In this document: piece after piece, positions 6,750 through 13,051 of the stretch
Numbering within the stretch: position 1 is the stretch's first letter
How the letters are laid out: each line of letters begins with the position of its first letter
The notes under the pieces: generated by a model
Told to the model about the DNA's origin: nothing
Seen by the model: only the letters and a program-made list of their open reading frames with translations
Database searches by the model: none
Position numbers and translations under genes: made by a program
Assembly: GCA_027340875.1 (NCBI GenBank)
Contig: DAIENX010000013.1
Span: 1 to 13,051, forward strand
Reading direction: 5' to 3'
DNA length: 13,051 nucleotides
Source: Elusimicrobiota bacterium
Lineage (GTDB): Bacteria > Elusimicrobiota > Elusimicrobia > Elusimicrobiales > UBA9959

Positions 6750-7748
6750 TCAATTCCCTTCGGGGGTAAGCGGCACGTTCAAAGACGAGCCGTCCATGGA
6801 GAACTCCATCGTGTCGTTGAGATCGGTGCGGAACACCCTGGCGCCTATGTCCTGCAGGCGGCCGAGAGCCTCCTGGGTGGGGTGGCCGTAGTTGTTGTCT
6901 GCGCCAACCTCAATGTAGGCGCGGGAGGGCTTCACGGCATCGAGGAAAGGCATGGTGGAGGAATACTTGCTGCCGTGGTGGCCGACCTTCAGCACGTCGG
7001 CCCTGAGCTCGGCGCCGTACTTGGCCGTTATGCCGGCCTCGGCGCTGCCCTGCACGTCTCCGGTAAAAAGGATGGAGGAGCCTTTGTAGCTCAGTTTGAA
7101 CATGATGGAGCAGTTGTTGAGCACTTCGCCCTTGTTGGTGGCCAGGGGCTGCTGGCAGGCGTTGAAGACCTTTATGTCCACCCCGGGCTCGCTCCAGTCC
7201 ATCTTCTGCCCGGCCTCGGGGTAGAAGAAGGCTACGCCCTTGTCATGCGCTGTCTGGCGGAGCTTCTCGTCGGCCTTGGTGCCGGTGTTGTCCACGCGGG
7301 TATCGTAGAAGTTCCTGACGGGGAGGTTGGAGAAGACGTACTGCAGGCCGTTATAATGGTCGCTGTGCGGATGCGTAAGCACCACGTCGTCTATCGCGGT
7401 GACGTGCTTGGCCGCCAGGAAGTGGGCCAGCGAGCTGGTGGGGTAATTGGAAGGGCCTCCGTCTATAAGGGCGTTGTGCCCGCCGGGGAGCTCTATATAT
7501 ATGGAATCACCCTGGCCCACGTTTATGAAGTAGACGTTGAGGCCGGGAGCCGCGGTGTAGAGGGTGGCGTTGGAGGGGACCGGGGCGAGGGGGACCTGGG
7601 TTTCCGGGGCGCCGAGCCTGAGCTGGTCTATGGCCCGCTCCGCATGCGCCTGGGCGGCAAAATGGAATACGGCTAGGAAGGAGAAAACGGCTGCGAACAC
7701 GGCTTTAAGGACTGCGGGTGCTGGAGAGTTCTTTCTCACGGGGTGCAT
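6750..7748 (-). CDS. Exported ComEC/Rec2-type metallo-beta-lactamase-fold hydrolase (stand-alone domain)
   Basis: SD GGAGGT before ATG 7748 and a signal peptide ending AHA. Motifs FINVGQGDS, LIDGG, LTHPHSDHYNG (HxHxDH), NNCSI, FTGD, LKVGHHGS, NNYGHP and RTD. No multi-TM Competence domain. Confidence 0.9.
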   Translation of the reverse strand: MHPVRKNSPAPAVLKAVFAAVFSFLAVFHFAAQAHAERAIDQLRLGAPETQVPLAPVPSNATLYTAAPGLNVYFINVGQGDSIYIELPGGHNALIDGGPSNYPTSSLAHFLAAKHVTAIDDVVLTHPHSDHYNGLQYVFSNLPVRNFYDTRVDNTGTKADEKLRQTAHDKGVAFFYPEAGQKMDWSEPGVDIKVFNACQQPLATNKGEVLNNCSIMFKLSYKGSSILFTGDVQGSAEAGITAKYGAELRADVLKVGHHGSKYSSTMPFLDAVKPSRAYIEVGADNNYGHPTQEALGRLQDIGARVFRTDLNDTMEFSMDGSSLNVPLTPEGN

Positions 7749-7924
7749 ATCCACCTCCCACTTGCCTGCTGCCTGGTGGCGCATTAAAAGCGAACGCGCC
7801 GCGCTTTCGGCTCAGGCCGCCTTGAGCATGGCTCATCGCGGCGCGAGCAAGGCCTAGTGGTGAATCCGGCTTACGGTCCGGAGGTGGATGCTCCCCGGCC
7901 TATCCCGGGGATTACACAGAAGCC
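7749..7924 (-). ncRNA. Candidate structured cis-regulatory 5' leader (no known family recognised)
   Basis: Nested inverted repeats: 7749-7758/7880-7889 (10 bp, SD/anti-SD), 7758-7762/7856-7860, 7764-7770/7846-7853 (one bulge) and 7795-7803/7837-7845 (9 bp). Additional hairpins at 7865-7882 and 7892-7911. Confidence 0.55.
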
Positions 7925-7930
7925 GTATAT

Positions 7931-7959
7931 ACTTTATAGGCCATATTGACTACGCTCAA
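7931..7959 (-). promoter_or_regulatory. Candidate sigma70 promoter for the MBL gene
   Basis: Minus strand TTGAGC-N17-TAAAGT in an AT-rich patch immediately upstream of the structured leader. Confidence 0.45.
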
Positions 7960-8082: not shown

Positions 8083-9675
8083 ATGGGTAAGATCATGTCC
8101 GAGAACGGGGAAATAGAATTTAATGAGCAGTTCTCCAGAGCCCTGCACCTGGCGCAGAGCGGCGGCCGCAATATCTTCATAACCGGCAAGGCCGGCACCG
8201 GCAAAAGTACCCTGCTGCGCTATTTCCGCGCCCATACCGCCAAGAAGATAGTGGTCCTGGCCCCTACCGGCGTTGCGGCCCTGAACGTGGCGGGGGAGAC
8301 TATACACTCTTTTTTCCGCTTCAAGCCGGGCACTACTCCGGACAAGGTGAAGCGCGCGCGCAAAAAGGACGCGGAACTGTACAAGGCGCTGGAGGCCATA
8401 GTCATAGACGAGGCCTCGATGCTGCGGGCCGACCTGCTGGACTGTGTGGACGCCTTCATGCGCATCAACGGCCCTGCGCCCGGCACCCCCTTCGGAGGGG
8501 CCCAATTGATACTTTTCGGGGACCTTTACCAGCTGCCGCCGGTGGTGACTTCCGCGGAGCGGGAGCTGTTCTCCTCCCACTACGCTGGACCCTATTTCTT
8601 CAACGCCAGGGTCTTCAAGGAAACCGCCATCGAGTACATAGAGCTGGAGAAGATCTACCGCCAGAAGGACCAGGGCTTCATAGACATCCTCAACGCCATA
8701 CGCAACAACCGCGTGAGTGCCGCGCAGCTGGCGCAGCTCAACCGGCGCGTCGGCGCGGACGTGGAATCCGGCAAGCGCGGCATCACGGTGCGGCTGATGA
8801 CCACCAACGCGGACGCCGCGGAGATGAACAACGAGCGCCTGCGGGCCATAGACGGCCGGGCCCACGTCTACCGCGCGGAGATAGACGGCGAATTCTCCCG
8901 CGATTCCTTCCCGGCCGAAGAGGAGCTGCACCTGAAGGCCGGCGCGCAGGTGATGATGCTCAATAACGACCCCGACGGCCGCTGGGTGAACGGCACGATG
9001 GCCGTGGTGCACGACATCATGAAGGGCCCTCCCGGAGAGGAGGACGTGGTGCACGTGCGTCTGGCGGACGGCTCGCTGGAGCCGGTGGCGCCGAACGCCT
9101 GGGAGCTCTTCCATTACAGCTTCGACAAGGAAGCGAAGAAGATAATCGCCGAGACCGCGGGCACGTTCAGGCAGTACCCGCTCAGGCTGGCCTGGGGCAT
9201 CACGATACACAAGAGCCAGGGCAAGACCTTCGACCGGGCCACGATAGACCTGGGGAAGCGGGCCTTCGCCGCCGGCCAGACCTACGTGGCGCTCTCGCGC
9301 TGCACCGGGCTGGAGGGGCTTTCGCTGGCCCGCCCGGTCCGCGCTTCCGACGTGATGACCGACTGGCGCATAGTCCGCTACGTGACCGGGCGCCAGTACG
9401 GCGCCAGCGAGGAGCTGCTGCCCCTGGCCGGCAAGGTGAAGCTGATAGAAGAGGCCATAAAGGCCGGAAGCCTGCTGGAGATGACCTACCTGAAGGCCTC
9501 GGACGAGAAGAGCCGGCGCGTCGTGCGGCCGCGCTCCGTGGGGGAATGCCGCTACAAGGACTTCACTTTCACCGGCCTGCAGGCCGACTGCCTTAAGCGC
9601 GGCGAGCGCCGTACCTTCAGGGTGGACAGGATCCTGGAGCTGAAGGCGGTGGAGGGACCTGCCGGTAAATCGTAG
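8083..9675 (+). CDS. Pif1/RecD-like SF1B 5'-3' DNA helicase with C-terminal WYL domain
   Basis: Walker A TGKAGTGKS, LAPTGVAA, GETIHSFF, Walker B IVIDEASM, FGG..LILFGDLYQLPPV, L..IYRQKD, QYPLRLAWGITIHKSQGKTF and GQTYVALSR. The WYL-type tail reads MTY...RRVVRP...C..RGERRTFRVDRI. The start may be ATG 8095. Confidence 0.93.
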   Translation: MGKIMSENGEIEFNEQFSRALHLAQSGGRNIFITGKAGTGKSTLLRYFRAHTAKKIVVLAPTGVAALNVAGETIHSFFRFKPGTTPDKVKRARKKDAELYKALEAIVIDEASMLRADLLDCVDAFMRINGPAPGTPFGGAQLILFGDLYQLPPVVTSAERELFSSHYAGPYFFNARVFKETAIEYIELEKIYRQKDQGFIDILNAIRNNRVSAAQLAQLNRRVGADVESGKRGITVRLMTTNADAAEMNNERLRAIDGRAHVYRAEIDGEFSRDSFPAEEELHLKAGAQVMMLNNDPDGRWVNGTMAVVHDIMKGPPGEEDVVHVRLADGSLEPVAPNAWELFHYSFDKEAKKIIAETAGTFRQYPLRLAWGITIHKSQGKTFDRATIDLGKRAFAAGQTYVALSRCTGLEGLSLARPVRASDVMTDWRIVRYVTGRQYGASEELLPLAGKVKLIEEAIKAGSLLEMTYLKASDEKSRRVVRPRSVGECRYKDFTFTGLQADCLKRGERRTFRVDRILELKAVEGPAGKS

Positions 9676-9986: not shown

Positions 9987-10016
9987 ACGGCTCATTATCA
10001 CGGGAACAAAGTGAAC

Positions 10017-13000
10017 ATGCGGGGGCACGGGGTTTATCGCGTCTTTATCCGGCGGATGTCATGTCTGGCCGCGATCATCGTTTTCGCCGCGGCGGTCCCT
10101 CCGGCCTCGGCTCAGACCACGAATACGGCCGCGGCCATCGCCCCCATAAACCCGGAGTTCAGTCCCGCCAGGAGGCCAGGGCGCATGGCGGAGGTCACCT
10201 TGAGCGGGCACGCGCTTGGTTCCATTCCGGGGCCGTTCGATTCCTCGTACATGAAGGGCATGCACCCTTCGGACGTGATCATCAGCAGCGGCGGCATGCA
10301 GACAAGGGTGCCGTTCCACGCCATTACCGGGTATGCCGTTTCGTACGATCTGAGAACCCTTGGTAAGCTTACGCCAGTAAAGGATCAGAGCACTTGCGGA
10401 GCCTGCTGGACCTTCGCCGCTATGGCCACGCTCGAGTCCAGGCTGCTTACCGGGGAGACCTGGGATTTCTCTGAGAACAACCTCAAGAACGCGAACGGTT
10501 TTGACTGGACGCCGTGTGCCGGAGGCAACCGATACCTCGCCACGGCCTACTTTTCGCGCTGGAGCGGTCCCTGGACGGAAGCCGCAGACCCGTACAGCGT
10601 GACCGAAAATAAGCAGCTGGCGACCTATCCTTCCGTCAACGCGCAGAAACATGTCCAGGACGTGATATTCCTGCCTGACCGCGCCAGCTCTATCGATAAT
10701 GACAACATAAAGTGGGCGCTTACCAATTACGGCGCGGTCCACACCGACATGCGCTGGGAGGACCCCTCCTACAATGCCACTTATAAGTCGTATATCTACA
10801 CCGGCGCCGGGGTCGTAAACCACGGGGTCACGATAGTGGGTTGGGACGACAACTTCGACAAGAACAAGTTCGCCAGTGTGCCGGCCGGCAACGGCGCATT
10901 CATAATCCGGAATTCCTGGGGCGGCGTCTGGGGGGAGGGCGGGTACTTTTATATCTCCTATTACGACACCAAATTAACGAATAACACGGTATACGCCACT
11001 CCTGACTCCAACACCAACTACTACAGGATATATCAGTACGATCCATTCGGGCAGGTCTCCGCGACCGGTTACGGCTCCACCGTGGCCTGGTTCGCGAACG
11101 TCTTCACGGCGCAGGACGCCAATACGCAAGTGGACGCCGTAAGCTTTTACGCGCTGAGCGTAGGCGCCAGCTATGAGATATACGTCTATCGCGATATGCC
11201 AACGGCCGGCAATCCGCGCTCCGGCACGCTGGTGGACAGCCAGATCGGCTCGGTGAGCTATTCCGGGTATTACACCATACCGCTCACCACCAAGGTGCCC
11301 CTGACTAACGGCCAGGTGTTCACGGTCGTGGTCAAGATGACCACCCCGGGCTACAATTATCCTATCCCTATCGAATATCCGCTAGCGAATTTTTCCAGCG
11401 CGGCTACGGCCGCGGCCGGCCAGAGCTATGTCGGTCCGGACGGTGTCTCCTGGGGCGACGCCACCACGTCCGTCGGTGCCAACACCAACGTCTGCGTAAA
11501 GGCCTTCACCTCGGTGATGAACGACTCCACGCCGCCATCCAACATCGCCACGGTCAACGACGGCAGCGCCGCCGATATCACCTATACCACCAACAGCGGC
11601 CAGCTGCAGGCCAACTGGACCGCGTCGGCGGACGCGGAGAGCGGTATCCGCCGCTACTGGTACGCCATCGGGACGACCGCCGGCGGCACCGATGTGGTGG
11701 GCTGGACGGACAACAGCACTGTCACTTCCGTTACGAAGACCGGGCTTACGTTGACCAACGGTCAGGCTTATTATTTCACGGTCAAGGCGGAGAACTGGGT
11801 GGGTCTGCAGTCGGCGGCGACGAATTCCAACGGCCAGACGGTGGACACGACGGCGCCCGGAACGCCTGGGGCGGTGAACGACGGCTCAGGAGCGGATATA
11901 GCATATACCACGTCGGGCAGTCAGTTGCAGGCCAACTGGGGTGCGGCTTCGGACGCGCAGAGCGGCATCGCGCGGTACTGGTACGCCATCGGGACGACCG
12001 CCGGCGGCACCGACGTGGTGGGCTGGACCGACAACGGGGCCGCCCTGTCCGTTACGAAGACCGGGCTTACGCTGACCAACGGTCAGGCTTATTATTTCAC
12101 GGTCAAGGCGGAGAACAACGCGGGTTTGCAGTCTGCGGCGGCCAATTCCAACGGCCAGACGGCGGACACCACGGCGCCGTCCGTTCCGGGCGCGGTGAGC
12201 GACGGCGCCGGCGCCGATATCGCGTACACGGCCTCCGCCACCCAGCTGCAGGCTAACTGGACGGCTGCCGCGGACGCGCAGAGCGGCATCGCGAAGTACT
12301 GGTATGCTATAGGAACCACCGTGGGCGGCACCGACGTGGTGGGCTGGACCGACAACGGGGCCGCCCTGTCCGTTACGAAGACCGGGCTTACGCTGACCAA
12401 CGGTCAGGCATATTATTTCACGGTCAAGGCTGAGAACGGTTCCGGGCTGCAGTCCGGCGCCGTCAATTCGAACGGCCAGACGGTGGACACTACCGCGCCG
12501 GGCAACGTCTCCGTTGTCAACGACGGCACCGGCGCGGATATCGGCTATACCACGTCGGGCAGCCAGCTGGCGGCTAACTGGACCACCTCCTCTGACGCGC
12601 AGAGCGGCATCGCGAAGTACTGGTACGCCATCGGGACGACCGCCGGCGGCACCGATGTGGTGGGCTGGACCGACAACGGCGCGGTCCTTTCCGTTACGAA
12701 GACCGGGCTTACGCTGACGGACGGGCAGGTGTATTACTTCAGTGTCAAGGCGGAGAACGGGGCCGGGCTACAGTCCGGCGCCATCAACTCCAATGGTCAG
12801 ATGGCGGATGCGTCGGCGCCGTCCGTTCCGGGCGCGGTGAGCGACGGCGCCGGCGCCGATATCGCGTACACGGCCTCCGCCACCCAACTGCAGGCTAACT
12901 GGACGGCTGCCGCGGACGCGCAGAGCGGCATCGCGAAGTACTGGTACGCCATCGGGACGACCGCCGGCGGCACCGATGTGGTGGGCTGGACCGACAACGG

Positions 13001-13051
13001 CGCGGTCCTTTCCGTTACGAAGACCGGGCTTACGCTGACCAACGGTCAGGC
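10017..13051 (+). CDS. Large secreted papain-like (peptidase C1A) cysteine protease with lectin-like domain and tandem FN3-like repeats; 3'-truncated by the window edge
   Basis: Frame 3 is open from GTG 10011/ATG 10017 to the end (>1000 codons, hand-translated). Signal peptide ending ASA|Q; SYDLR..TPVKDQSTCGACWTF (Cys 10404), NHGVTIVGWDD (His 10821) and IRNSWG..WGEGGYFYISY (Asn 10911). Then YQYD...FANVF...GYYTI...NVCVKAFT (lectin-like domain typical of prokaryotic C1A proteins), followed by repeats. Confidence 0.93.
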   Translation, partial: MRGHGVYRVFIRRMSCLAAIIVFAAAVPPASAQTTNTAAAIAPINPEFSPARRPGRMAEVTLSGHALGSIPGPFDSSYMKGMHPSDVIISSGGMQTRVPFHAITGYAVSYDLRTLGKLTPVKDQSTCGACWTFAAMATLESRLLTGETWDFSENNLKNANGFDWTPCAGGNRYLATAYFSRWSGPWTEAADPYSVTENKQLATYPSVNAQKHVQDVIFLPDRASSIDNDNIKWALTNYGAVHTDMRWEDPSYNATYKSYIYTGAGVVNHGVTIVGWDDNFDKNKFASVPAGNGAFIIRNSWGGVWGEGGYFYISYYDTKLTNNTVYATPDSNTNYYRIYQYDPFGQVSATGYGSTVAWFANVFTAQDANTQVDAVSFYALSVGASYEIYVYRDMPTAGNPRSGTLVDSQIGSVSYSGYYTIPLTTKVPLTNGQVFTVVVKMTTPGYNYPIPIEYPLANFSSAATAAAGQSYVGPDGVSWGDATTSVGANTNVCVKAFTSVMNDSTPPSNIATVNDGSAADITYTTNSGQLQANWTASADAESGIRRYWYAIGTTAGGTDVVGWTDNSTVTSVTKTGLTLTNGQAYYFTVKAENWVGLQSAATNSNGQTVDTTAPGTPGAVNDGSGADIAYTTSGSQLQANWGAASDAQSGIARYWYAIGTTAGGTDVVGWTDNGAALSVTKTGLTLTNGQAYYFTVKAENNAGLQSAAANSNGQTADTTAPSVPGAVSDGAGADIAYTASATQLQANWTAAADAQSGIAKYWYAIGTTVGGTDVVGWTDNGAALSVTKTGLTLTNGQAYYFTVKAENGSGLQSGAVNSNGQTVDTTAPGNVSVVNDGTGADIGYTTSGSQLAANWTTSSDAQSGIAKYWYAIGTTAGGTDVVGWTDNGAVLSVTKTGLTLTDGQVYYFSVKAENGAGLQSGAINSNGQMADASAPSVPGAVSDGAGADIAYTASATQLQANWTAAADAQSGIAKYWYAIGTTAGGTDVVGWTDNGAVLSVTKTGLTLTNGQ
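11523..13051 (+). repeat. Intragenic tandem repeat, 321 bp / 107 aa, about 4.8 copies visible (FN3/Ig-like)
   Basis: Units start at 11523, 11844, 12165, 12486 and 12807. Consensus DTTAP...V(N/S)DG.GADI.YT...QLQANW....DAQSGI.(K/R)YWYAIGTTAGGTDVVGWTDN...SVTKTGLTLTNGQ.YYF.VKAEN..GLQS...NSNGQ. Confidence 0.95.

What the first reader, a model, noticed from the sequence alone, without database searches (positions are those of the whole stretch)
7749..7924. Novel riboswitch/thermometer-like leader with a perfect long-range anti-Shine-Dalgarno
Seen (minus-strand RNA): AUCCACCUCC (7889-7880) is exactly complementary to GGAGGUGGAU (7758-7749), which covers the SD right up to the AUG about 130 nt downstream. 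Nested inside are CCACU/AGUGG, GCC(U)UGCU/AGCAGGC and a 9-bp CGCGCCGCG/CGCGGCGCG stem. That stem's 33-nt loop has mutually exclusive UGAGC/GCUCA pairings. A 5-bp hairpin (7865-7882) competes for part of the anti-SD, and a 7-bp hairpin caps the 5' end. Inference: a translational switch controlling an exported ComEC-like hydrolase or nuclease. I do not recognise it as a known Rfam family.
Basis: partly seen in the sequence, partly recalled or inferred. Interest (0 to 1): 0.75.

Follow-up and report, generated by a model that had tools for sequence, protein, structure and literature searches.

The report
Deoxyguanosine riboswitch masking a ribosome site
This leader is not a new RNA class but a copy of the rare, already described 2'-deoxyguanosine-II riboswitch, apparently wired so that part of its ligand pocket hides the ribosome-binding site of a secreted ComEC-like nuclease gene until the DNA breakdown product is present.

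Summary
The 10-nt anti-SD/SD complement arises in 3 of 20,000 dinucleotide shuffles. The 5' half of the region (7922-7852, minus strand) is a known Rfam family, the 2'-dG-II purine riboswitch aptamer (RF03165, 63 bits against a cut-off of 60). The "anti-SD" is the ligand-binding strand J2/3 plus the first three bases of P3.

The gene is a secreted, stand-alone homologue of the ComEC nuclease domain. A later paper reports ComEC as a known gene association of this class.

What differs from the other copies is the expression platform. All 30 paralogous copies inspected in this Elusimicrobia genus carry a terminator overlapping P1. The 32 orthologous leaders of this gene lack one. They keep 8-12 contiguous pairs between J2/3-P3 and the SD/start region across linkers of 27-108 nt. 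Three sister genera do the same.

My best reading is a translational ON switch. Strict covariation in the core helix is absent because both strands are invariant, and nothing is tested experimentally. It is a new member of a known kind, of moderate interest. This scan has noted 2'-dG-II switches in Elusimicrobia before, on other DNA.

The parts
7931..7959 (-). Predicted promoter: -35-like TTGAGC (7959-7954), 17-nt spacer, -10-like TAAAGT (7936-7931). The inferred start is about 7925-7923.
   Evidence: The consensus CTTGAGCAAAnTCAA-N9-TA-N3-TATA is conserved in 30 orthologous upstream regions. The strict sigma-70 scan found no site. The start site is an inference, not mapped.
7851..7924 (-). 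2'-dG-II riboswitch aptamer (three-way junction P1-P2-P3). The Rfam match covers 7922-7852.
   Evidence: RF03165, 63 bits (gathering 60), E 2.3e-14, model positions 1-71 of 71. Three non-canonical P1 pairs occur in the model's register. A 1-nt shifted P1, GGCUU[CU]GUG / CAC[U]AGGCC, is used by the constrained fold.
7892..7911 (-). P2 hairpin (UCCCCGG / CCGGGGA, loop GAUAGG).
   Evidence: 100% of cells are paired in 32 orthologues, and 2 of 7 pairs show changes on both sides.
7880..7891 (-). Anti-SD strand: J2/3 (GCAUCCACC, 7891-7883) plus the first three bases of the P3 5' strand (UCC, 7882-7880).
   Evidence: It is exactly complementary to 7758-7749. AUCCAC is upper-case consensus in the family model. 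Passages of PMC6847200 say J2/3 residues 47-51 contact the ligand. Mapping those residues onto this sequence is my inference.
7865..7882 (-). P3 hairpin (UCCGG[A] / [G]CCGGA, loop CCGUAA).
   Evidence: 99% of cells are paired in 32 orthologues. Here and in L034 the loop-closing pair is A-G.
7846..7859 (-). P1 3' strand and the bases after it (CACUAGGCCUUGCU). In the OFF fold this is a second strand that pairs with the pre-SD segment.
   Evidence: MFE. A P1-3': pre-SD duplex of 5-7 bp occurs in 13 of 32 orthologues (CCACU../..AGUGG) and in another form (CCACGGUA/UACCGGG-like) in 5 of 32.
7795..7845 (-). Linker hairpin (9-bp GC stem, structured 33-nt loop). It is a lineage-specific spacer nested inside the long-range helix.
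   Evidence: It is present only here and, in altered form, in L034. Linkers in the other orthologues are 27-67 nt and unalignable. It is not repeated elsewhere in the genome.
7783..7794 (-). U-rich tract UUCGCUUUUAAU after the GC stem (a weak terminator-like feature).
   Evidence: The consensus scan flags only a 5-bp sub-stem at 7805-7793. A run of five or more T occurs in 2 of 32 orthologous linkers, both inside hairpin loops.
7759..7770 (-). Pre-SD segment AGCAGGCAAGUG, which pairs with 7846-7859 in the OFF fold.
7746..7758 (-). Shine-Dalgarno GGAGG, spacer UGGAU and start codon AUG.
   Evidence: The 13 nt GAGGUGGAUAUGC are 97-100% identical in 32 orthologues, while the 15 nt before them are 38-72% identical. 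The exact 13-mer GGAGGTGGATATG occurs once in the genome.
6750..7748 (-). Regulated gene: a 332-aa exported MBL-fold protein, a stand-alone homologue of the ComEC C-terminal nuclease domain.
   Evidence: PF00753 at 1.1e-16. TIGR00361 ComEC/Rec2, profile positions 438-662 of 663, at 3.2e-31 (below its full-length cut-off, as expected for a single domain). PDB ComEC chains 9ic4 at 8e-35 and 30bt at 4e-33. The N-terminus reads like a signal peptide ending AQAHA (my reading).

Best explanation
The leader is a 2'-deoxyguanosine-II (2'-dG-II) purine riboswitch acting on translation as an ON switch.

Without ligand: the SD, the spacer and the start codon (7758-7746) pair with the aptamer's own J2/3 strand and the start of P3 (7891-7880). 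The bases just upstream of the SD pair with the 3' strand of P1. The aptamer is therefore unfolded and the ribosome site is buried. The variable linker hairpin merely bridges the two strands.

With 2'-deoxyguanosine bound: J2/3, P3 and P1 are held in the three-way junction and the SD is released. The secreted ComEC-like nuclease is then made. This would be a feed-forward response to DNA breakdown products.

Shown: family membership by covariance model, the complementarity, its conservation, and the absence of the terminator that the paralogues have. Inferred: the ligand, the direction of the switch, the transcription start and the nuclease activity.
For: 1. Aptamer: RF03165 at 63 bits against a cut-off of 60, full length. 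Orthologous copies score 61-77 bits. P1-P3 are 95.7% paired in 32 orthologues against 28-58% when the partners are slid, and P2 shows compensatory changes.

2. Complement: 3 of 20,000 shuffles reach 10 nt.

3. Conservation: 32 of 32 distinct orthologous leaders have 8-12 contiguous pairs (8 bp in 1, 9 in 3, 10 in 16, 11 in 9, 12 in 3; G-U allowed). Linkers run from 27 to 108 nt. RNAalifold on the 32 picks P2 plus this long-range helix as the consensus, extended over the UG of AUG and the next C.

4. Reciprocal fit: the SD core GGAGG pairs with the family-variable aptamer positions (C + UCC of P3). The otherwise free SD-AUG spacer UGGAU pairs with the family-conserved AUCCA. That spacer is 97-100% identical in 32 species. 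The equivalent columns in 13 orthologues of another riboswitch-controlled gene of the same genus are 54-92% identical.

5. 16S comparison: the 16S tail in 8 of 43 genus genomes ends ...GGATCACCTCC. The extra G in GGAGGUG-G-AU therefore departs from 16S complementarity but fits the aptamer's CC.

6. Platform contrast: 30 of 30 paralogous copies inspected have a stem plus T-run overlapping the P1 3' strand. Among the 32 leaders of this gene, only 2 have a run of five or more T, both inside loops.

7. Sister genera (g8, g11, g17; MBL gene confirmed downstream) keep a 9-11-bp J2/3: pre-start duplex even where the distance to AUG and the GGAGG core change. One compensatory difference occurs within g8: GUAUCC:GGAUAC against GCAUCC:GGAUGU.

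8. Energies: the OFF fold is more stable than the aptamer fold in 27 of 32 leaders, median 6.3 kcal/mol, and 6.7 here. In my judgement ligand and tertiary contacts could plausibly cover that gap. The modelled unpaired probability of GAGGU rises when the aptamer is locked in 29 of 32 leaders.

9. Gene class: ComEC is listed among the known associations of 2'-dG-II (passage of PMC8872408).
Against: - No strict covariation in the core helix. 7 of 11 pairs never vary and 0 show changes on both sides, so within the genus the helix rests on invariance, which shared ancestry or separate constraints could also give.
- AUCCAC is conserved for ligand binding and GGAGG for the ribosome, and the anti-SD resembles the 16S tail. 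Part of the match comes for free.
- In single-sequence folds the MFE holds 8 or more of these pairs in only 16 of 32 leaders, and none in 4 of 32.
- The aptamer fold is equal or better in 5 of 32.
- In the aptamer-locked model the SD is still mostly paired locally. Unpaired probability here goes from 0.04 to only 0.20; the median goes from 0.07 to 0.31.
- The P1 of this copy is weak (three non-canonical pairs in the model's register) and its score is only 3 bits above the cut-off.
- There are no transcript, ligand-binding or reporter data.
- I could not read the paper that defined the class, so I do not know whether this platform was already described there.
Confidence: 0.7

Rival explanations
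1. The aptamer is a genuine 2'-dG-II riboswitch, but the SD complementarity is a by-product: both strands resemble the 16S tail / SD pair. Control would act another way, for example Rho-dependent termination or mRNA stability coupled to P1 formation.
For: The anti-SD differs from the 16S tail found in the genus by one inserted C. The core helix shows no compensatory change. The modelled gain in SD accessibility is modest.
Against: The SD-AUG spacer fits the aptamer rather than the 16S tail and is invariant, unlike in a control gene family. The duplex is kept in other genera where GGAGG is lost. No terminator or other platform is visible.
Confidence: 0.15
2. The GC stem (7845-7795) followed by UUCGCUUUU is an intrinsic terminator, so the leader is a transcription attenuator.
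For: A terminator-like site is flagged at 7805-7793. The paralogous copies in this genome use terminators.
Against: The stem overlaps no aptamer strand, so it would form in both states and could not be ligand-controlled. The stem and U-tract are absent from 30 of 32 orthologues. The loop is 33 nt.
Confidence: 0.05
3. The aptamer is a decaying relic (weak P1, borderline score) and the leader is a constitutive structured 5' UTR.
For: 63 bits against a cut-off of 60, with three non-canonical P1 pairs.
Against: The junction strands are invariant and P2 covaries across 32 species. Orthologues score up to 77 bits. A shifted P1 of 3+5 pairs is available.
Confidence: 0.05
4. One reading: a new riboswitch or RNA-thermometer class.
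For: SD masking by a long helix is what thermometers do. The fold z-score is -3.5.
Against: There is a full-length match to RF03165 above the gathering score. The masking strand is the ligand-binding J2/3 of that aptamer.
Confidence: 0.02

Closest known systems
2'-dG-II riboswitch class (Rfam RF03165; defined by Weinberg et al. 2017, which I could not read; env1 aptamer structure in Matyjasik & Batey 2019, PMC6847200, of which I read passages)
   Same: Three-way junction, J2/3 AUCCAC, J3/1 UCAC, a G-C pair closing P1, and a gene for a ComEC-like DNA-processing protein.
   Different: The class was known from 12 metagenomic sequences with no host assigned (passages of PMC5473149). Here it sits in an Elusimicrobia genus in which 36 of 36 other genomes searched carry it, listed with 1-9 matches each. 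In this copy the expression platform is SD masking by J2/3-P3 rather than a terminator.
The paralogous 2'-dG-II copies in the same genome (L001, L002) and genus. They resemble the pbuE adenine riboswitch, a transcriptional ON switch (the pbuE comparison is recalled).
   Same: The same aptamer family and the same ON logic: ligand-stabilised aptamer strands are withheld from a repressing helix.
   Different: There the repressing helix is an intrinsic terminator sharing the P1 3' strand (30 of 30 copies). Here no terminator is present and the repressing helix buries the SD and start codon.
Vibrio vulnificus add adenine riboswitch, a translational ON purine riboswitch (recalled, not checked in a call)
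   Same: A purine-family aptamer whose ligand-free state sequesters the SD and start codon, with the ligand turning translation on.
   Different: As I recall, in add the masking strand comes from the P1 3' side and the adjacent expression platform. Here the main masking strand is the ligand-contacting J2/3 plus the P3 5' strand, 121 nt upstream of the SD, with the P1 3' strand as a second segment.

Membership tests
2'-dG-II riboswitch (RF03165) | Covariance-model score at or above the curated gathering score, over the full length | tested here: met
   63 bits against 60, model positions 1-71 of 71, E 2.3e-14. It is the best of its clan at this site.
2'-dG-II riboswitch (RF03165) | P1-P2-P3 three-way junction supported by comparative data | tested here: met
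   95.7% of 576 cells are paired in 32 orthologues against 28-58% for slid partners. P2 has 2 pairs with changes on both sides and P1 has 1. In this copy P1 is weak.
2'-dG-II riboswitch (RF03165) | Signature junction bases: a C-rich J2/3 (AUCCAC), a J3/1 with the two-base insertion and the ligand-pairing C, and a G-C pair closing P1 | tested here: met
   GCAUCCACC, UUCAC and G7915-C7859 align without gaps to the model's upper-case positions. The roles of these bases are taken from passages of PMC6847200. Mapping the env1 numbers onto this sequence is my inference.
2'-dG-II riboswitch (RF03165) | Selective binding of 2'-deoxyguanosine | not testable with these tools
   This needs in-line probing or ITC.
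2'-dG-II riboswitch (RF03165) | Association with genes for DNA-processing or exported proteins (ComEC, endonuclease I, phospholipase D, receiver domain) | tested here: met
   The downstream gene matches the ComEC MBL domain. A receiver-domain gene lies further downstream on the same strand at 6541-6179. The list of associations comes from a passage of PMC8872408.
Translational ON purine riboswitch (add-like mode of action) | SD and start codon paired in the ligand-free fold and released in the aptamer fold | tested here: inconclusive
   The helix is conserved in 32 of 32 leaders and is the alifold consensus. However, 0 compensatory pairs occur in the genus, and the modelled SD opening is partial (0.04 to 0.20).
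Transcriptional ON riboswitch (terminator sharing the P1 3' strand) | Intrinsic terminator overlapping an aptamer strand | tested here: not met
   The GC stem at 7845-7795 overlaps no aptamer strand. A T-run occurs in 2 of 32 orthologues, against 30 of 30 paralogues.
RNA thermometer | SD-masking helix with weak or mismatched pairs that melt with temperature, with no ligand pocket | tested here: not met
   The masking helix is 10 perfect pairs (duplex -21.9 kcal/mol), and the masking strand belongs to a ligand-binding aptamer. Temperature response itself was not tested.

The most novel reading that the evidence does not exclude
The strand that contacts the ligand (J2/3) is itself the anti-Shine-Dalgarno. 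Ligand and ribosome site would then compete directly for the same bases, and switching would not rely on P1 alone. I found no description of this platform type for purine riboswitches in the papers I could read. It is kept across at least four genera and tolerates 27-108 nt of unrelated linker. The J3/1 of this sub-type (UUCAC) also differs from the terminator-type copies of the genus, so it might have a different nucleoside selectivity.
Probability: 0.4. Interest if true: 0.5.

Novelty: new member of a known kind. Interest (0 to 1): 0.3.

Why it matters
2'-dG-II riboswitches were described from a dozen metagenomic fragments with no host assigned, and in the papers I could read I found no account of their regulatory logic in a host.

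This locus and its orthologues and paralogues place the class in one Elusimicrobia lineage. There it sits mostly in front of genes whose products begin like exported proteins. Two different ON platforms are built on the same aptamer: terminator release and SD release.

The ComEC-like nuclease leader would be a compact natural test case for a ligand pocket strand that doubles as an anti-SD. It also fits a feed-forward model of extracellular DNA scavenging. None of this changes the verdict that the RNA family itself is known.

Tried and rejected
- RNA evidence: the look-up of sequencing runs listed no RNA holder of the stretch, so I ran no read mapping and have no transcript start.
- Metagenome scan with a loose aptamer pattern: 119 stretches matched and 80 were returned. 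Only 1 of the 80 passed a filter for the upstream junction motif, and it is not a convincing aptamer. The scan gave no extra orthologues.
- Weinberg et al. 2017 is not held. Its account of expression platforms, and its supplements, may already cover this architecture.
- Search for Elusimicrobia + riboswitch + deoxyguanosine: 0 papers. The search 'dg-ii' + riboswitch found 29 papers. I read passages of five of them (PMC6847200, PMC9295807, PMC5473149, PMC8872408, PMC12342879).
- The linker insert as a repeat or mobile element: there is only the self-match in the genome, so I rejected this.
- The in-frame upstream ATG at 7784 (the ORF start listed): I rejected it as the start because the linker that holds it is not conserved, whereas the SD and ATG at 7748 are invariant.
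- The 16S tail was not found in this assembly. I took it from 8 of 43 genus genomes instead.
- Of the 24 loci from the protein-based search that I examined for the aptamer (L063-L086 of the 39), 18 duplicated loci already held and 2 added new leaders. Four showed no aptamer in the fetched DNA: two are cut at a contig end, and two are the most distant relatives at 51-52% identity.
- Earlier notes of this scan hold nothing for this place or this sequence.

Full report
**What is in the sequence.**
On the minus strand, AUCCACCUCC (7889-7880) is the exact complement of GGAGGUGGAU (7758-7749). That 10-mer abuts AUG 7748-7746. The start opens a 332-codon frame ending at 6750. In 20,000 dinucleotide-preserving shuffles of the 172 nt upstream, a 10-nt complement arose 3 times and one of 8 nt or more arose 91 times. 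The 191-nt stretch folds at -89.7 kcal/mol (z = -3.5, reached by 0 of 200 shuffles), and the MFE uses the long-range helix.

One correction is needed. CCACU/AGUGG and the 10-mer share G7758, so the two helices cannot both be full length.

**What it is.**
cmscan against Rfam 15 gives one match above a gathering score in the whole 13-kb window. It is RF03165, the 2dG-II purine riboswitch aptamer, at 7922-7852 (-), 63 bits against a cut-off of 60, E 2.3e-14, full length. The permissive search adds only chance-level hits.

Set against that model:
- the 5-bp hairpin is P3 (7882-7865);
- the "anti-SD" is J2/3 (GCAUCCACC) plus the first three bases of P3.

P1 is poor in the model's register, with three non-canonical pairs. 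A 1-nt shifted P1 of 3+5 pairs is available. Passages of Matyjasik & Batey 2019 state that J2/3 residues 47-51, a C in J3/1 and the G-C pair closing P1 recognise 2'-deoxyguanosine. The corresponding bases are present here, though the mapping is my inference.

**The gene and its surroundings.**
The product is an MBL-fold protein (PF00753). It matches only the C-terminal part of the ComEC/Rec2 model (TIGR00361 positions 438-662 of 663, E 3e-31) and matches solved ComEC chains (9ic4 at 8e-35, 30bt at 4e-33). Its N-terminus reads like a signal peptide. [quoted passage not shown] A receiver-domain gene lies further downstream on the same strand (6541-6179). The neighbour on the other side is a divergent PIF1-like helicase.

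**Distribution.**
The genome holds three copies. In a draw of 61 genomes:
- all 36 other members of the genus have the family (listed with 1-9 matches each);
- 0 of 22 genomes of a small-genome sister family have it;
- 2 of 2 genomes of a third family have it.

Record titles of relatives name Elusimicrobia metagenome-assembled genomes. In 2017 the class comprised 12 metagenomic sequences with no host assigned (passages of PMC5473149). A search for Elusimicrobia + riboswitch + deoxyguanosine found no paper. Earlier notes of this scan had already reported 2'-dG-II switches of the terminator type in Elusimicrobia on other DNA.

**The expression platform.**
The other two copies in this genome, and the 28 further paralogous copies fetched from the genus, all carry a GC-rich stem plus a T-run whose 5' strand overlaps the 3' strand of P1. 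This is the classic layout in which ligand-stabilised P1 prevents termination. A run of five or more T follows in 30 of 30.

The leader of the ComEC-like gene is different. A DNA search with the 261-nt leader found it in 40 of 43 genus genomes. After removing duplicates, 32 distinct orthologous leaders remain. None has such a terminator. Two have a T-run, in both cases inside a hairpin loop.

All 32 keep 8-12 contiguous pairs between J2/3-P3 and the SD/spacer (8 bp in 1, 9 in 3, 10 in 16, 11 in 9, 12 in 3). The distance from P1 to the start codon ranges from 27 to 108 nt, and the linker sequence cannot be aligned. This window and its closest relative have the longest linker.

The 9-bp stem and the UGAGC/GCUCA pairings are lineage-specific. 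They are altered even in the 90%-identical relative, and the insert is not repeated elsewhere in the genome.

**Is the pairing selected, or free?**
Within the genus, both strands are nearly invariant. Of 11 pairs, 7 never vary and none shows a change on both sides. Covariation is therefore silent. Four other observations argue for selection.

1. *Reciprocal fit.* The ribosome-constrained GGAGG pairs with aptamer positions that vary in the family (C, then UCC of P3). The normally free SD-AUG spacer UGGAU pairs with the family-constrained AUCCA.
2. *An unusually fixed spacer.* GAGGUGGAUAUGC is 97-100% identical in 32 species, while the 15 bases before it are 38-72% identical. In 13 orthologues of another riboswitch-controlled gene of the same genus, the columns between SD and start are 54-92% identical.
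3. *Fit to the aptamer rather than to the ribosome.* The 16S tail in 8 of 43 genus genomes reads ...GGATCACCTCC. The second G of GUGGAU spoils 16S complementarity but matches the aptamer's CC.
4. *Sister genera.* The pattern search found this aptamer sub-type in 32 of 401 genomes of the phylum, all in one family, in 6 of 122 genera. Where the MBL gene is confirmed downstream (g8, g11, g17), a 9-11-bp duplex between J2/3 and the pre-start region persists. It persists although the distance to AUG shifts and GGAGG degenerates. Two g8 species differ by a compensatory pair, GUAUCC:GGAUAC against GCAUCC:GGAUGU.

A second helix, between the P1 3' strand and the bases just before the SD, occurs in two different sequence forms in 18 of 32 leaders. 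RNAalifold on the 32 leaders returns P2 plus the long-range helix, extended over the UG of the start codon and the next C.

**Energetics.**
With P1-P3 enforced and the junction strands unpaired, this leader folds at -80.3 kcal/mol. With the anti-SD helix it folds at -87.0 kcal/mol. Across the 32 leaders the masked fold is more stable in 27, with a median difference of 6.3 kcal/mol and a range of -2.5 to 12.1. In my judgement, ligand binding and loop-loop contacts could plausibly cover such a gap.

The model is not clean, however:
- the MFE contains 8 or more of the pairs in only 16 of 32 leaders, and none in 4;
- when the aptamer is locked, the SD is still partly caught in a small local hairpin around the start codon;
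- the unpaired probability of GAGGU goes from 0.04 to 0.20 here, and from a median of 0.07 to 0.31, rising in 29 of 32.

**Mechanism proposed.**
Transcription probably starts at about 7925-7923, downstream of conserved -35-like and -10-like boxes. This is an inference: the strict promoter scan found nothing and no RNA run was listed.

- *Without ligand:* the SD, spacer and start codon invade J2/3 and P3, and the pre-SD bases take the P1 3' strand. Translation is off.
- *With 2'-dG:* the junction is locked, the SD is released, and the exported ComEC-like nuclease is made.

This ON logic is the same as in the terminator-type copies. It fits a response to DNA breakdown products.

**Rivals.**
- The complementarity might be a by-product of the resemblance to the 16S tail, with control exerted otherwise.
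- The GC stem plus U-tract might be a terminator. But it overlaps no aptamer strand and is not conserved.
- The aptamer might be a relic. But its junction strands are invariant and P2 covaries.
- A new class or a thermometer is contradicted.

**Verdict.**
The claim of a new family is not. This is a new member of the known 2'-dG-II class, with a known type of target gene. The expression platform is the interesting part: SD masking by the ligand-binding strand, conserved across genera. It is a testable detail rather than a new kind of system. I could not read the paper that defined the class, so it may already be described there.

Noticed in passing
L106, L107, L109, L110, L115, L117 (genus relatives; aptamer at about 41-112 of each locus or the reverse): Six purine-riboswitch-like aptamers have the J2/3 core replaced (GUGAAACGCG instead of GUAUCCACG) and a J3/1 of GAACC/GUACC. 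They score 43-56 bits on RF03165, below the cut-off of 60, with no better Rfam family. Each is followed by a P1-overlapping terminator and an ORF whose product begins like a signal peptide (my reading). They may be a variant with a different ligand.
   Followed up: partly
L118 and L120 (genus relatives): Degenerate 2dG-II-like aptamers (37-43 bits) sit before a small ORF. The ORF encodes a repeated Cys-containing peptide (MLFEEHN...SKPHC.DMGCEG, twice), reminiscent of a modified-peptide precursor.
   Followed up: no
L104 (G002:C294): A paralogue of the SD-masking sub-type (61 bits) lies before a different exported-protein gene. There the bases between SD and AUG (GUCCGAU) are complementary to the P1 3' strand (AUCGGAC) rather than to J2/3. 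This looks like a third way of wiring the same aptamer.
   Followed up: no
window 7960-7946 and orthologues: A 15-nt block, CTTGAGCAAAnTCAA, upstream of the leader is 80-100% conserved in 30 species (apart from the one variable position). That is longer than a -35 box needs, so it might also be a regulator binding site.
   Followed up: no
window 8083-9675 (+): The divergent neighbour is a PIF1-like helicase fused to a C-terminal WYL domain (PF05970 at 7e-29, PF13280 at 1e-7).
   Followed up: no
window 10011-13049 (+): A large open-ended ORF combines a papain-family protease domain with a lectin-like domain (PF00112 at 2e-29, PF18560 at 5e-49).
   Followed up: no
window 7748-7735 and orthologues: When the aptamer is locked, a small hairpin GGUG-GAUAUG-CAYC encloses the start codon in this leader and in most orthologues. 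It may explain the near-invariant ATGCAYC, or it may just reflect a conserved Met-His.
   Followed up: partly
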